Shown here in pieces: positions 12,903 to 27,166 of a DNA stretch of 28,549 nucleotides; within the stretch, counting starts at the first letter, position 1, and each line of letters opens with the position of its first letter. The translations under genes were made by a program, and so were the position numbers. The notes under the pieces were generated by a model. It searched no databases, was not told the origin of the DNA, and worked only from the letters and a program-made list of their open reading frames with translations. The stretch is from the NCBI RefSeq assembly GCF_003334385.1, contig NZ_QOWN01000056.1; one strand, given 5' to 3'. Origin of the DNA: Escherichia coli. GTDB lineage: Bacteria; Pseudomonadota; Gammaproteobacteria; Enterobacterales; Enterobacteriaceae.

Positions 12903-12932
12903 GCCGGATACGCCGCAAACGTCGTATCCGGC
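12903..12932. terminator. REP-like hairpin between convergent xni and fucO (gccggatacgccg-caaa-cgtcgtatccggc); candidate bidirectional terminator
   Basis: 13-bp arms with one mismatch, 4-nt loop, sitting between the two stop codons. Confidence 0.5.
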
Positions 12933-16669: not shown

Positions 16670-18445
16670 ATGAAAAAAATCAGCTTACCGAAAATTGGTA
16701 TCCGCCCGGTTATTGACGGTCGTCGCATGGGTGTTCGTGAGTCGCTTGAAGAACAAACAATGAATATGGCGAAAGCTACGGCCGCACTGCTGACCGAGAA
16801 ACTGCGCCATGCCTGCGGAGCTGCCGTCGAGTGTGTCATTTCCGATACCTGTATCGCGGGTATGGCTGAAGCCGCTGCTTGCGAAGAAAAATTCAGCAGT
16901 CAGAATGTAGGCCTCACCATTACGGTAACGCCTTGCTGGTGCTATGGCAGTGAAACCATCGACATGGATCCAACCCGCCCGAAGGCCATTTGGGGCTTTA
17001 ACGGCACTGAACGCCCCGGCGCTGTTTACCTGGCAGCGGCTCTGGCAGCTCACAGCCAGAAAGGCATCCCAGCATTCTCCATTTACGGTCATGACGTTCA
17101 GGATGCCGATGACACATCGATTCCTGCCGATGTTGAAGAAAAACTGCTGCGCTTTGCCCGCGCCGGTTTGGCCGTCGCCAGCATGAAAGGTAAAAGCTAT
17201 CTGTCGCTGGGCGGCGTTTCGATGGGTATCGCCGGTTCCATTGTTGATCACAACTTCTTTGAATCCTGGCTGGGAATGAAAGTCCAGGCGGTGGATATGA
17301 CCGAACTGCGTCGCCGTATCGATCAGAAGATTTACGACGAAGCCGAATTGGAAATGGCACTGGCCTGGGCTGATAAAAACTTCCGCTATGGCGAAGATGA
17401 AAATAACAAACAGTATCAACGTAATGCCGAGCAAAGCCGCGCAGTTCTGCGCGAAAGTTTACTGATGGCGATGTGTATCCGCGACATGATGCAAGGCAAC
17501 AGCAAACTGGCCGATATTGGTCGCGTGGAAGAATCACTTGGCTACAACGCCATCGCTGCGGGCTTCCAGGGGCAACGTCACTGGACCGATCAATATCCCA
17601 ATGGTGACACCGCCGAAGCGATCCTCAACAGTTCATTTGACTGGAATGGCGTGCGCGAACCCTTTGTCGTGGCGACCGAAAACGACAGTCTTAACGGCGT
17701 GGCAATGCTAATGGGTCACCAGCTCACCGGCACCGCTCAGGTATTTGCCGATGTGCGTACCTACTGGTCACCAGAAGCAATTGAGCGTGTAACGGGGCAT
17801 AAACTGGATGGACTGGCAGAACACGGCATCATCCATTTGATCAACTCCGGTTCTGCTGCGCTGGACGGTTCCTGTAAACAACGCGACAGCGAAGGTAACC
17901 CGACGATGAAGCCACACTGGGAAATCTCTCAGCAAGAGGCTGACGCTTGCCTCGCCGCTACCGAATGGTGCCCGGCGATCCACGAATACTTCCGTGGCGG
18001 CGGTTACTCTTCCCGCTTCCTTACCGAAGGCGGCGTCCCGTTCACCATGACTCGTGTCAACATCATCAAAGGCCTGGGACCGGTACTGCAAATCGCGGAA
18101 GGCTGGAGCGTGGAATTGCCGAAGGATGTGCATGACATCCTCAACAAACGCACCAACTCAACCTGGCCAACCACCTGGTTTGCACCGCGCCTCACCGGTA
18201 AAGGGCCGTTTACGGATGTGTACTCGGTAATGGCGAACTGGGGCGCTAACCATGGGGTTCTGACCATCGGCCACGTTGGCGCAGACTTTATCACTCTCGC
18301 CTCCATGCTGCGTATCCCGGTATGTATGCACAACGTTGAAGAGACCAAAGTGTATCGTCCTTCTGCCTGGGCTGCGCACGGCATGGATATTGAAGGCCAG
18401 GATTACCGCGCTTGCCAGAACTACGGTCCGTTGTACAAGCGTTAA
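16670..18445 (+). CDS. fucI: L-fucose isomerase FucI (591 aa)
   Basis: [44 protein letters not shown]...; stop taa 18443..18445. Confidence 0.93.
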
Positions 18446-18553
18446 TACATTACTCCCTGATGTGATGCCCGGTCGCTCCGGCTACCGGGCCTGAACAAGC
18501 AAGAGTGGTTAGCCGGATAAGCAATGTTATCCGGCTATATTGCAGGAGCGATT

Positions 18554-19972
18554 ATGAAACAAGAAGTTATCCTGGTACTCGACTGTGGCGCGACCAATGT
18601 CAGGGCCATCGCGGTTAATCGGCAGGGCAAAATTGTTGCCCGCGCCTCAACGCCTAATGCCAGCGATATCGCGATGGAAAACAACACCTGGCACCAGTGG
18701 TCTTTAGACGCCATTTTGCAACGCTTTGCTGATTGCTGTCGGCAAATCAATAGTGAACTGACTGAATGCCACATCCGCGGTATCGCCGTCACCACCTTTG
18801 GTGTGGATGGCGCTCTGGTAGATAAGCAAGGCAATCTGCTCTATCCGATTATTAGCTGGAAATGTCCGCGAACAGCAGCGGTTATGGACAATATTGAACG
18901 GTTAATCTCCGCACAGCGGTTGCAGGCTATTTCTGGCGTCGGAGCCTTTAGTTTCAATACGTTATATAAGTTGGTGTGGTTGAAAGAAAATCATCCACAA
19001 CTGCTGGAACGCGCGCACGCCTGGCTCTTTATTTCGTCGCTGATTAACCACCGTTTAACCGGCGAATTCACTACTGATATCACGATGGCCGGAACCAGCC
19101 AGATGCTGGATATCCAGCAACGCGATTTCAGTCCGCAAATTTTACAAGCCACCGGTATTCCACGCCGACTCTTCCCTCGTCTGGTGGAAGCGGGTGAACA
19201 GATTGGTACGCTACAGAACAGCGCCGCAGCAATGCTCGGCTTACCCGTTGGCATACCGGTGATTTCCGCAGGTCACGATACCCAGTTCGCCCTTTTTGGC
19301 GCTGGTGCTGAACAAAATGAACCCGTGCTCTCTTCCGGTACATGGGAAATTTTAATGGTTCGCAGCGCCCAGGTTGATACTTCGCTGTTAAGTCAGTACG
19401 CCGGTTCCACCTGCGAACTGGATAGCCAGGCAGGGTTGTATAACCCAGGTATGCAATGGCTGGCATCCGGCGTGCTGGAATGGGTGAGAAAACTGTTCTG
19501 GACGGCTGAAACACCCTGGCAAATGTTGATTGAAGAAGCTCGTCTGATCGCGCCTGGCGCGGATGGCGTAAAAATGCAGTGTGATTTATTGTCGTGTCAG
19601 AACGCTGGCTGGCAAGGAGTGACGCTTAATACCACGCGGGGGCATTTCTATCGCGCGGCGCTGGAAGGGTTAACTGCGCAATTACAGCGCAATCTACAGA
19701 TGCTGGAAAAAATCGGGCACTTTAAGGCCTCTGAATTATTGTTAGTCGGTGGAGGAAGTCGCAACACATTGTGGAATCAGATTAAAGCCAATATGCTTGA
19801 TATTCCGGTAAAAGTTCTCGACGACGCCGAAACGACCGTCGCAGGAGCTGCGCTGTTCGGTTGGTATGGCGTAGGGGAATTTAACAGCCCGGAAGAAGCC
19901 CGCGCACAGATTCATTATCAGTACCGTTATTTCTACCCGCAAACTGAACCTGAATTTATAGAGGAAGTGTGA
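18554..19972 (+). CDS. fucK: L-fuculokinase FucK (472 aa from this ATG; an in-frame ATG at 18524 would give 482 aa)
   Basis: ORF ...[32 protein letters not shown]... (FGGY carbohydrate kinase). aggag RBS at 18544..18548 sits 5 nt before ATG 18554; the upstream ATG 18524 lies in the loop of a hairpin. Confidence 0.88.
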
Positions 19973-26071: not shown

Positions 26072-26083
26072 GCACAGAACCGG

Positions 26084-26113
26084 GTCGGATAAGACGTTCG
26101 CGTCTCATCCGAC
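26084..26113. terminator. REP-like palindrome between convergent csdE and tcdA (gtcggataagacg-ttcg-cgtctcatccgac)
   Basis: 13-bp arms with one mismatch between the two stop codons. Confidence 0.5.
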
Positions 26114-26121
26114 CTGATTGT

Positions 26122-26928: not shown

Positions 26929-26981
26929 AGCACCTCAGAATTAAAAAGGGCGAGGTTATCCCTCACCCTAAACGCATAAAT

Positions 26982-27010
26982 GCCTGATGCGCTACGCTTA
27001 TCAGGCCTAC
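26982..27010. repeat. REP element (gcctgatgcgctacgcttatcaggcctac)
   Basis: Canonical E. coli REP palindrome motif. Confidence 0.7.
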
Positions 27011-27044
27011 ATAACTCCTGCAATATTTTGGATTTGCATGATTT

Positions 27045-27078
27045 GTAGGCCGGATAAGGCGTTCACGCCGCATCCGGC
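27045..27078. repeat. REP element (gtaggccggataaggcgttcacgccgcatccggc), inverted relative to the first; together a BIME-like pair
   Basis: Canonical REP motif; the REP pair lies between the mltA stop and the tcdA start. Confidence 0.7.
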
Positions 27079-27166
27079 ATGAACAACGCGCACTTAGTCA
27101 ATAATCAGGATGTGAGGTTACCCCTCACCCTGTCATATCCGTAAAAACGGCATACAGAATATCACA

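What the first reader, a model, noticed from the sequence alone, without database searches (positions are those of the whole stretch)
18467..18553. Structured fucI-fucK spacer; upstream in-frame ATG of fucK sits in a hairpin loop
The 108-bp spacer contains two hairpins (gcccggt...accgggc at 18467..18490 and the REP-like perfect 10-bp stem agccggataa/ttatccggct at 18511..18536). The ATG at 18524, which would give a 482-aa FucK, is in the loop of the second hairpin and lacks an RBS, whereas ATG 18554 follows aggag. The hairpins may set differential stability or translation between fucI and fucK within the operon.
Basis: seen in the sequence. Interest (0 to 1): 0.25.

Follow-up and report, generated by a model that had tools for sequence, protein, structure and literature searches.

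The report
Decayed REP pair between fucI and fucK
The two hairpins between the E. coli fucose genes fucI and fucK are worn-down copies of a common bacterial repeat (a REP pair), and the extra upstream ATG lies in a loop and is almost certainly unused, so this is an ordinary feature.

Summary
The window is E. coli K-12. The 108-nt fucI-fucK spacer holds hairpin 1 (18467-18490, -17.4 kcal/mol) and hairpin 2 (18510-18537, a perfect 11-bp stem, -16.7 kcal/mol). ATG 18524 lies in the loop of hairpin 2 with no Shine-Dalgarno (SD) sequence. ATG 18554 follows AGGAG.

Orthologous spacers in Citrobacter, Klebsiella and Salmonella carry a canonical BIME (two inverted REPs) at exactly these positions. Covariance models built from those REPs recover both E. 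coli hairpins in the right orientation (21.8 and 19.7 bits). IS1397, a REP-loop-specific insertion sequence, sits in the hairpin 2 loop in one strain. Both hairpins have lost the GTAG/CTAC motif, and hairpin 2 has lost the stem mismatch, so they are immobile relics.

They still look constrained. The spacer diverges 3-8 times more slowly than flanking third-codon positions, and stem changes keep pairing. Genera without REPs have a terminator-like hairpin at the same place.

The likely function, inferred and not shown, is a REP-type intercistronic RNA stabiliser/attenuator that favours fucI over fucK.

The 472-aa start is conserved in 44/44 spacers and is already the current annotation. E. albertii lacks the upstream ATG. 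Low novelty.

The parts
18443..18445 (+). fucI stop codon TAA
   Evidence: It lies 21 nt upstream of the foot of hairpin 1.
18465..18496 (+). Hairpin 1, a decayed inverted REP (iREP) of the GCCCGGT...ACCGGGCCTAC class. The stem is 18467-18473 with 18484-18490. The apex is C(UCCG)G at 18476-18481. The CTAC tail is lost (CCTGAAC).
   Evidence: The fold is -17.4 kcal/mol, z = -3.8. It is the best window hit of model R3, built from Citrobacter/Klebsiella REP1 units: 19.7 bits, E about 0.009, + strand. The alignment shows positional homology. The REP class is dispersed: 30 of 43 metagenome matches lie outside fuc.
18491..18509 (+). Linker between the two REP remnants. Bases 18503-18509 can pair with 18449-18455 to give a weak outer helix around hairpin 1.
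   Evidence: MFE structure. The outer helix is not well conserved within Escherichia.
18508..18537 (+). Hairpin 2, a decayed y-type REP. It has a perfect 11-bp stem (18510-18520 with 18527-18537) and a 6-nt loop, gcaatg. The head is GTTAG instead of GTAGG. TT replaces the usual mismatch.
   Evidence: The fold is -16.7 kcal/mol, z = -5.8. Model R1, built from 22 non-Escherichia REPs, gives 21.8 bits, E = 6.5e-4. This is the third-best hit in the window, after the canonical BIME at 26980-27080. IS1397 has inserted at 18526-18529 in strain BH100.
18524..18526 (+). Upstream in-frame ATG that would give a 482-aa FucK. It sits in the loop of hairpin 2, has no SD sequence, and is judged non-functional.
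   Evidence: It is lost in E. albertii (ATA) and has no counterpart in most genera. The same in-frame ATG recurs by accident in the REP interior of Citrobacter Awk4, NCU1 and R56.
18544..18548 (+). Shine-Dalgarno sequence AGGAG of fucK
   Evidence: The GGAG column is invariant in the 15-sequence alignment, and a purine-rich SD-like motif precedes the ATG in all 44 spacers.
18554..19972 (+). fucK coding sequence (472 aa), the true start
   Evidence: The RefSeq annotation is NP_417283.2. The UniRef representative FUCK_ECOLI has 472 aa. ATGAA(A/G) aligns in 44/44 spacers. Pfam FGGY_N model position 1 falls at residue 5 of this form.

Best explanation
The fucI-fucK spacer of E. coli carries the decayed remains of a BIME, that is, two REP (palindromic unit) sequences in inverse orientation.

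- Hairpin 1 descends from an inverted REP of the GCCCGGT...ACCGGGCCTAC class.
- Hairpin 2 descends from a y-type REP (GTAGGCCGGATAAG...ATCCGGC).
- Both have lost the GTAG/CTAC tetranucleotide, and hairpin 2 has lost the stem mismatch. The REP-associated transposase needs both features, so these copies are fixed and no longer mobile.
- Both have been kept, and even tightened, as RNA hairpins. Hairpin 2 is a perfect 11-bp palindrome. Hairpin 1 is capped by a UNCG tetraloop.

The hairpins are transcribed inside the fucPIKUR mRNA. They most likely act as other intercistronic REPs do. They would block 3'-to-5' exonucleases and so stabilise the upstream fucP-fucI segment. They may also attenuate transcription partially and without a U-tract, possibly with the help of Rho. 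Either effect would make fucI expression exceed that of fucK, fucU and fucR.

The ATG at 18524 is an accidental by-product of the REP interior. FucK starts at ATG 18554, behind AGGAG.

Shown here: the structure, REP ancestry, positional orthology, sequence constraint and the conserved start site. Inferred: the effect on RNA stability and attenuation.
For: Identity:
- Alignment A2 places hairpin 1 on REP1 and hairpin 2 on REP2 of the canonical BIMEs in Citrobacter, Klebsiella, Raoultella and Salmonella.
- Model R1 finds the canonical BIME at 26980-27080 (32.8 and 30.8 bits) and then hairpin 2 (21.8 bits, same strand as in the orthologues).
- Model R3 ranks hairpin 1 first in the window (19.7 bits).
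- The REP1 class is a dispersed repeat, usually found next to an inverted y-like REP.
- IS1397 sits in the hairpin 2 loop with a 4-bp target duplication. All 6 other IS1397 copies sampled sit in the apical loops of canonical REPs. PMC1525189 states that IS1397 inserts specifically in REPs.

Decay:
- PMC3333891 shows that TnpA-REP needs GTAG and the stem mismatch, and that a GC-to-TT change making a perfect palindrome abolishes binding. Hairpin 2 has GTTA and exactly that TT state.

Constraint:
- Spacer divergence against K-12 is 2.8%, 1.9% and 6.5%. Flanking third-codon positions diverge by 9.3%, 15.1% and 20.0% (p = 0.01, 9e-6 and 2e-4).
- The hairpin 2 stem has 0 variable sites and its loop has 3.
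- Both hairpin 1 stem changes keep a G.U pair.
- C18478T turns the tetraloop UCCG into UUCG.

A hairpin at this position is general:
- 41 of 44 orthologous spacers fold with z < -2.
- Genera without a REP carry a hairpin plus a T-run, like an intrinsic terminator, in the same spacer.

Mechanism precedent:
- REPs stabilise upstream mRNA and attenuate transcription (Newbury 1987 and Espeli 2001, as cited in PMC12306157).

Start site: and PMC1805508.
Against: - No expression, 3'-end or half-life data for this spacer were found, so the function is inferred.
- Neither hairpin is followed by a U-tract, and the terminator scan finds nothing.
- Rfam has no match.
- The REP stems show almost no covariation, so structure counts are uninformative (60 of 500 shuffles do as well).
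- The three Escherichia comparisons are not independent, and the sample of E. coli variants is small (8 sequences).
- The 2026 preprint stresses that REP effects depend on context and are stronger for canonical REPs. These two are not canonical.
- Low divergence could also reflect a role at the DNA level.
- PMC1805508 implies that EcoGene's N-terminally verified set once listed the 482-aa start. I could not trace the reason.
Confidence: 0.62

Rival explanations
1. The hairpins are neutral relics. A selfish BIME landed in a permissive spacer and is simply decaying. They have no effect on fuc expression.
For: The GTAG/CTAC motif and the mismatch are lost. REP, ERIC-like and other elements come and go in this spacer between species, as expected for a permissive landing site. 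Two natural strains tolerate IS insertions here. The REP literature reports variable and often absent effects.
Against: The spacer evolves 3-8 times more slowly than flanking third-codon positions. Changes avoid the stems or keep wobble pairs. Decay would be expected to weaken a palindrome, not to perfect it to 11 bp or to add a UNCG cap. Lineages without a REP keep a hairpin at the same place. Only 2 of 5425 genomes have the spacer interrupted.
Confidence: 0.22
2. The element works at the DNA level, as described for some BIMEs, for example as a gyrase, IHF or Pol I binding site, or as a topological insulator. It would not act as RNA.
For: REPs and BIMEs bind gyrase, IHF and Pol I (PMC1525189; PMC3333891). 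Sequence conservation alone cannot tell a DNA role from an RNA role.
Against: The observed stem variants are G.U wobbles, and the apex is a UNCG tetraloop whose variant is also UNCG. These are stabilising features of RNA, not of DNA (plus established knowledge of C(UNCG)G loops). I saw no IHF-like site in the 19-nt linker, but this was by eye and is not a formal test. Lineages without a REP carry terminator-like RNA hairpins instead.
Confidence: 0.06
3. The hairpins control fucK translation or the stability of the downstream mRNA, rather than protecting fucI. Two versions are possible. Hairpin 2 could act as a 5' stem-loop that protects a processed fucKUR transcript. Or the hairpin 1 loop (UCGCUCC, 18473-18479) could pair with the fucK SD region (GGAGCGA, 18545-18551) as a pseudoknot that limits initiation.
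For: There is a 7-nt perfect complement between the hairpin 1 loop and the SD region, present in K-12, E. albertii and Escherichia sp.. Hairpin 2 ends 6 nt before the SD sequence.
Against: A complement of 6 nt or more arises in about 6% of shuffles, it was noticed post hoc, and it is absent from 41 of 44 orthologous spacers. The pairing competes with the UNCG-capped apex of hairpin 1. No processing-site data exist.
Confidence: 0.08
4. Both starts are used, so that a minor 482-aa FucK isoform beginning [10 protein letters not shown] exists.
For: The ORF is open from ATG 18524. Older annotations, and apparently EcoGene's verified set of about 2006, used it.
Against: There is no SD sequence, and the ATG lies in the 6-nt loop of a -16.7 kcal/mol hairpin. 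E. albertii has ATA there. The extension has no counterpart in other genera. The FGGY_N domain and PDB homologues begin after it. Current RefSeq and UniProt use 472 aa. PMC1805508 itself argues for the downstream start.
Confidence: 0.03

Closest known systems
Canonical E. coli BIME (z-type iREP + y-type REP), for example the one in this window at 26980-27080 between tcdA and mltA
   Same: Two palindromic units lie in inverse orientation in an extragenic spacer. They share the GCCGGATAAG...ATCCGGC core. The same covariance models hit both loci.
   Different: The fuc copy lacks GTAG/CTAC. Hairpin 2 is 28-30 nt and a perfect palindrome, so it has no stem mismatch. Hairpin 1 belongs to a GCCCGGT class typical of Klebsiella and Citrobacter, not to the E. 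coli z1/z2 types. The sequence is single-copy in E. coli.
Intercistronic REP stabilisers and attenuators (malE-malF REP, Newbury et al. 1987; REP325 in yjdMN, bioRxiv 10.64898/2026.03.23.713779)
   Same: REP hairpins lie between two genes of one operon. The predicted effect is to protect the upstream mRNA and reduce downstream expression.
   Different: The function is demonstrated for those loci and only inferred here. The fuc hairpins are non-canonical, and the preprint finds weaker effects for less canonical REPs.
Terminator-like hairpin in the fucI-fucK spacer of Raoultella terrigena, Enterobacter sp., Kluyvera and Symbiopectobacterium
   Same: It occupies the same position, between the fucI stop and the fucK SD sequence, and is a G+C-rich stem-loop.
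   Different: Those are single hairpins followed by a T-run. They are unrelated in sequence to REPs. The E. coli hairpins have no U-tract.
C(UUCG)G / UNCG-capped hairpins (Tuerk et al. 1988, cited from memory)
   Same: The apex of hairpin 1 is C(UCCG)G, and C(UUCG)G in strain SCPM-O-B-8794.
   Different: This is only the cap of a REP-derived stem. No thermodynamic or nuclease measurements were made here.

Membership tests
REP / palindromic unit, y type (hairpin 2) | Extragenic, transcribed location close to a gene end | tested here: met
   It lies in the 108-nt fucI-fucK spacer inside the fucPIKUR operon.
REP / palindromic unit, y type (hairpin 2) | Match to the REP consensus core (GTAGGCCGGATAAG...ATCCGGC) | tested here: met
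   Model R1 gives 21.8 bits, E = 6.5e-4, on the + strand, against 32.8 and 30.8 bits for the canonical REPs in the window. The CTTATCCGGCCTAC motif matches with 2 mismatches.
REP / palindromic unit, y type (hairpin 2) | Conserved GTAG tetranucleotide 5' of the palindrome foot (PMC3333891) | tested here: not met
   The sequence is GTTAGCCGG instead of GTAGGCCGG.
REP / palindromic unit, y type (hairpin 2) | Imperfect palindrome of 30-40 nt with a mismatch in the stem (PMC3333891) | tested here: not met
   It is a perfect 11-bp palindrome of 28 nt. TT lies opposite AA, where canonical REPs have the GC/AA mismatch.
REP / palindromic unit, y type (hairpin 2) | Many near-identical copies per genome | tested here: not met
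   The 121-nt spacer query matches a median of one place per E. coli genome. In the window, only the generic REP core recurs.
REP / palindromic unit, y type (hairpin 2) | Target of REP-specific insertion sequences (IS1397) | tested here: met
   IS1397 is inserted at 18526-18529 in strain BH100, with target duplication GTTA. All 6 other copies sampled lie in the loops of canonical REPs.
BIME (pair of inverted REPs) | An iREP and a REP in inverse orientation, separated by a short linker | tested here: met
   Hairpin 1 matches the iREP model on the + strand and hairpin 2 matches the REP model on the + strand. The stems are 19 nt apart. Both are positionally orthologous to canonical BIMEs.
BIME (pair of inverted REPs) | E. 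coli composition of y plus z1 (BIME-1, L linker with an IHF site) or y plus z2 (BIME-2) | tested here: not met
   Hairpin 1 is of the GCCCGGT...ACCGGGC class, not z1 or z2. The linker is unrelated to the tcdA/mltA linker. IHF binding was not tested.
Intrinsic (Rho-independent) terminator | G+C-rich hairpin followed directly by a U-tract | tested here: not met
   The scan of 18200-18800 finds none. Hairpin 2 is followed by AUAUUGCAGG. Orthologous spacers in L024 and L045 do meet this feature.
REP-type mRNA stabiliser / attenuator (functional class) | Higher abundance or longer half-life of the upstream cistron that depends on the hairpin, with 3' ends at the hairpin foot | not testable with these tools
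   No expression or 3'-end data for fucI-fucK were found in the searchable literature.
Curated RNA families (Rfam 15) | Any covariance-model match in 17500-19500 | tested here: not met
   There are 0 matches up to E = 10.
FGGY carbohydrate kinase N-terminus (bears on the start codon) | The domain begins within a few residues of the initiator Met | tested here: met
   FGGY_N model position 1 aligns to residue 15 of the 482-aa form, which is residue 5 of the 472-aa form. PDB homologues align from residues 13-18 of the long form to their own residues 3-10.

The most novel reading that the evidence does not exclude
The REP pair has been domesticated into a dedicated two-part RNA switch specific to Escherichia. 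Hairpin 1, capped by a UNCG tetraloop, would protect the 3' end of a processed fucPI mRNA. Its loop (UCGCUCC) could alternatively pair with the fucK SD region (GGAGCGA) as a pseudoknot. Hairpin 2 would cap the 5' end of a processed fucKUR mRNA. Processing and loop-SD pairing would then set the FucI:FucK stoichiometry after transcription.
Probability: 0.08. Interest if true: 0.45.

Novelty: new member of a known kind. Interest (0 to 1): 0.15.

Why it matters
The practical value is modest.

- It gives a concrete reason why the 482-aa FucK annotation, still present in some records, is wrong. The extra ATG is a by-product of a REP interior.
- It documents a clear case of a REP pair that has lost its mobility signals yet is kept under constraint as RNA hairpins inside an operon.
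- The same spacer holds canonical BIMEs, single REPs, ERIC-like elements or terminator-like hairpins in different genera. This makes fucI-fucK a convenient natural series for testing what an intercistronic hairpin does to relative expression in a sugar operon.
- None of this changes current understanding of REPs or of fucose metabolism.

Tried and rejected
- Rfam scan of 17500-19500 with permissive thresholds: nothing found.
- Promoter and terminator scan of the spacer: nothing found, so there is no consensus promoter for fucK and no intrinsic terminator.
- REP annotation in NC_000913.3: none is listed at fucI-fucK. The canonical BIME at 26980-27080 is not listed either, so this absence says nothing.
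- Covariation in the REP stem: uninformative, because the stem barely varies.
- Model R2 was built with a mis-registered structure string and was discarded. R3 replaced it.
- Literature searches for fucI/fucK together with REP/BIME, for FucK N-terminal peptides ([20 protein letters not shown]), and for fucI versus fucK expression: nothing relevant beyond the Hon-yaku paper.
- The RepRanger supplements held as text do not list fucI or fucK.
- The IS1397 primary papers (PMC94167, PMC169884) are not held. I therefore tested IS1397 specificity directly on six other copies.
- Anti-SD pairing of the hairpin 1 loop: kept only as a low-probability idea, because it arises by chance about 6% of the time and is confined to Escherichia.
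- REP-induced ribosome stalling at the fucI stop (the rule that a REP must lie within 15 nt of the stop): this does not apply in E. coli, where hairpin 1 starts 21 nt after the stop. It could apply in Klebsiella and Citrobacter, where the REP starts 4-14 nt after it.

Full report
**Where this is.** The window is E. coli K-12. The 421 nt around the finding are 100% identical to DH10B and are present in 5,425 of 5,426 complete E. coli genomes. Window position p corresponds to MG1655 position p + 2,918,914. The finding lies between fucI (16670-18445) and fucK inside the fucPIKUR operon.

**Observation check.**
- The fucI stop TAA is at 18443-18445, and the spacer is 108 nt.
- Hairpin 1 is gcccggt (18467-73) paired with accgggc (18484-90).
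- Hairpin 2 is agccggataa (18511-20) paired with ttatccggct (18527-36). The pair t18510-a18537 extends it to 11 bp.
- The loop gcaatg (18521-26) contains ATG 18524.
- AGGAG (18544-48) precedes ATG 18554 by 5 nt.
- The 482-aa ORF exists and is closed upstream by TAA 18518-20.

The structures are not chance.
- The spacer folds at -46.4 kcal/mol (z about -4; 0/500 shuffles).
- Hairpin 2 folds at -16.7 (z -5.8; 0/500) and hairpin 1 at -17.4 (z -3.8; 2/500).
- Perfect stems of 10 bp or more occur at only three loci in the window, against 0.39 expected.
- Perfect 7-bp stems are common (44 observed, about 20 expected). Hairpin 1 therefore rests on its energy and homology rather than on stem length.

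**What it is.** I fetched the fucI-fucK junction from 43 other species and extracted the spacers. With K-12, this makes 44 spacers.
- 29 of the 44, including the four Escherichia, contain two REP or REP-like units in inverse orientation, which is a BIME. A typical example is ...GCCCGGTGGCGCAAGCTTACCGGGCCTAC-linker-GTAGGCCGGATAAGGCGTTTACGCCGCCATCCGGCA... In some, the first unit is z-type (TGCCTGATGGCG...CTTATCAGGCCTAC).
- Alignment A2 puts E. coli hairpin 1 on the first unit and hairpin 2 on the second, with the same distance to the fucK start.
- In Citrobacter Awk4, NCU1 and R56 the REP interior reads GCGCAATGCC. Its ATG lies 10 codons upstream and in frame, exactly as in E. coli. This shows that the E. 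coli 'caatg' loop is inherited REP interior.

Two independent tests agree with this reading.
- A covariance model built from 22 non-Escherichia second units (R1) finds, in the whole window, the canonical BIME between tcdA and mltA (27045-27080 at 32.8 bits; 26980-27010 at 30.8 bits). Its next hit is hairpin 2 (18508-18537, + strand, 21.8 bits, E = 6.5e-4).
- A model of the first-unit class (R3) ranks hairpin 1 first (18465-18496, + strand, 19.7 bits, E about 0.009), ahead of the canonical REPs.
- That first-unit class is a genuine dispersed repeat. Of 43 exact matches in metagenome contigs, 30 lie outside a fuc context, nearly always beside an inverted y-like REP.

**An unplanned confirmation.** Only 2 of 5,425 genomes have the spacer interrupted.
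- In strain BH100 an IS1397 sits at 18526-18529, at the boundary of the loop and the 3' arm of hairpin 2, with target duplication GTTA.
- IS1397 is reported to insert specifically into REPs (PMC1525189).
- I checked six other IS1397 copies from six genomes. All six split canonical y- or z-type REPs at the apical loop; a 3-4 bp target duplication could be read for five of them.
- The transposase therefore treats hairpin 2 as a REP.
- In strain 13KWH46 an IS2-like element lies in the loop of hairpin 1, with target duplication CTCCG.

**Why 'decayed'.** Ton-Hoang et al. (PMC3333891) define E. coli REPs as imperfect palindromes of 30-40 nt with a conserved GTAG 5' of the foot.
- They show that the REP-associated transposase needs both the GTAG and the stem mismatch. 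Changing GC to TT, which makes the palindrome perfect, abolishes binding and cleavage.
- Hairpin 2 reads GTTAG instead of GTAGG and has exactly that TT state.
- Hairpin 1 has CCTGAAC where the class has CCTAC.
- The sequence is single-copy in E. coli.

I therefore do not file the hairpins as canonical REPs. They are relics of a BIME, and by inference they are no longer mobile.

**Are they still doing something?** Several observations argue against pure neutral decay.
- Against K-12, the spacer differs by 2.8% (Escherichia sp. MOD1), 1.9% (E. albertii) and 6.5% (a divergent E. coli). Third-codon positions of the flanking fucI and fucK differ by 9.3%, 15.1% and 20.0% (Fisher p = 0.01, 9e-6, 2e-4).
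- Among eight variant Escherichia sequences, the 22 stem positions of hairpin 2 never change, while its 6-nt loop has three variable sites (hypergeometric p = 0.006).
- The two changes in the hairpin 1 stem (A18484G, C18490T) both keep a G.U pair.
- C18478T converts the apex C(UCCG)G into C(UUCG)G, so it remains a UNCG tetraloop. G.U pairs and UNCG caps stabilise RNA rather than DNA. This last point rests on established knowledge, not on a test here.
- Across genera the position is always structured. 41 of 44 spacers fold with z < -2. The 11 spacers with no REP carry a single G+C-rich hairpin, in most cases followed by a T-run, which the scan calls terminator-like. Two Citrobacter spacers carry what looks like an ERIC element instead.

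**Most likely mechanism (inferred).** The hairpins are transcribed within the fucPIKUR mRNA and have no U-tract. They most plausibly act like other intercistronic REPs.
- They would block 3'-to-5' exonucleases and so stabilise the upstream segment.
- They might also attenuate transcription partially, possibly with the help of Rho.
- Either effect would raise fucP-fucI expression relative to fucK-fucU-fucR.

The precedents are as follows.
- REP stabilisation and BIME attenuation, as summarised in PMC12306157.
[quoted passage not shown] That preprint also reports large context dependence and weaker effects for non-canonical REPs.

I found no expression, 3'-end or half-life data for this spacer. 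This step is therefore inference, and I give it about even odds.

The mechanism in which a REP within 15 nt of a stop codon stalls terminating ribosomes does not apply in E. coli, because hairpin 1 starts 21 nt after the stop. It could apply in Klebsiella and Citrobacter, where the REP starts 4-14 nt after the stop.

**The start codon.** ATG 18554 with a purine-rich SD-like motif is aligned in all 44 spacers.
- The 10-codon extension has no counterpart in most genera, and E. albertii has ATA at 18524-26.
- Pfam FGGY_N starts at residue 15 of the long form, and PDB homologues align from residues 13-18.
- RefSeq (NP_417283.2, WP_000808392.1) and the UniRef representative FUCK_ECOLI have 472 aa. 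The 482-aa sequence survives in older records on 45 contigs, against at least 1,000 for the short form.
- The issue was already raised in 2007. Hon-yaku predicted the downstream site with probability 1.0 and argued that the start then listed by EcoGene, 10 codons longer, was erroneous (PMC1805508).
- I could not find out why EcoGene's N-terminally 'verified' set listed the long form. This is the only evidence on the other side.
- No paper in the searchable library contains either N-terminal peptide.

**Alternatives considered.**
- Neutral relic: about 0.22.
- DNA-level role: about 0.06.
- Control of fucK translation or of downstream mRNA stability: about 0.08. This includes a 7-nt complement between the hairpin 1 loop (UCGCUCC) and the SD region (GGAGCGA). 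It is found only in Escherichia, and a complement of 6 nt or more arises by chance in about 6% of shuffles.
- A real 482-aa isoform: about 0.03.

**Verdict.** The feature is a decayed BIME, a new but unremarkable member of a very well known kind. The start-codon question is already settled in current annotation. Interest is low (0.15). The only mildly interesting angle is that a REP pair appears to have been fixed and kept as RNA hairpins after losing its mobility signals, in a spacer that always carries a hairpin-forming element of one kind or another across genera.

Noticed in passing
L003 3732-5164 (E. coli BH100), equivalent to window 18526-18529: IS1397 is inserted in the loop of hairpin 2 between fucI and fucK, with target duplication GTTA. 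The BH100 lineage carries at least 33 IS1397 places. All six other copies sampled from six genomes split canonical REPs at their apical loop.
   Followed up: yes
L004 2170-3500 (E. coli 13KWH46), equivalent to window 18477-18481: An IS2-like element of the IS3 family is inserted in the loop of hairpin 1, with target duplication CTCCG. The effect on fucK expression in this strain is unknown.
   Followed up: partly
window 12903-12932: A perfect 10-bp hairpin, GCCGGATACG...CGTATCCGGC, lies between the convergent genes ygdG and fucO. It has a REP-like core (model R1: 14.9 bits, E about 0.04) and is probably a bidirectional terminator or a REP relic.
   Followed up: partly
window 26980-27080: A canonical BIME (z-type iREP plus y-type REP, 34-nt linker) lies between tcdA and mltA. 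It is not listed in the NC_000913.3 feature table returned by the tool, so a missing REP annotation there is uninformative.
   Followed up: yes
window 26082-26117: A degenerate REP-like hairpin, GGTCGGATAAGACG...CGTCTCATCCGACC, lies between csdE and tcdA (model R1: about 10 bits, not significant).
   Followed up: no
L013 1318-1500 and L046 1383-1500: In Citrobacter amalonaticus S646 and Citrobacter sp. MGH106 the fucI-fucK spacer holds a different palindromic element. Its ends (…GAGTTGCAGG… and …CCTGCAAC…TATGACGGGTATG) resemble ERIC/IRU. I identified this from memory only.
   Followed up: no
window 18476-18481; REP1 units in L008-L047 and L063-L105: The apex of hairpin 1 is a UNCG tetraloop, C(UCCG)G, which becomes C(UUCG)G in L007. 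The Klebsiella/Citrobacter GCCCGGT-class REPs are capped by C(GCAA)G. Their variants GUAA, GAAA, GCGA and GUGA keep the GNRA pattern, while GCAG does not. This suggests RNA-level selection on the apex of REPs of this class.
   Followed up: partly
window 18473-18479 and 18545-18551: There is a 7-nt perfect complement between the hairpin 1 loop (TCGCTCC) and the fucK SD region (GGAGCGA). It is present only in Escherichia. A complement of 6 nt or more arises in about 6% of shuffles.
   Followed up: partly
L038 (Escherichia whittamii) and L037 (Citrobacter sedlakii), 1447-1500 and 1451-1500: These species keep only one of the two units, the first in E. whittamii and the second in C. sedlakii. Their spacers are 50-54 nt, which shows turnover of REPs at this site.
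   Followed up: no
L014, L016, L010, L025 around 1485-1500: The Salmonella and some Klebsiella spacers have an in-frame ATG 4 codons upstream of the fucK start, overlapping the SD sequence (TTTATGGAGTTATCTATG). This is another possible source of inconsistent start annotation.
   Followed up: no
L048 and L011: A 382-nt contig labelled Agrococcus sp. HG114 encodes a FucK fragment 99% identical to that of E. coli, which is probably contamination. A contig labelled Serratia marcescens carries a Citrobacter/Klebsiella-like fuc locus.
   Followed up: no
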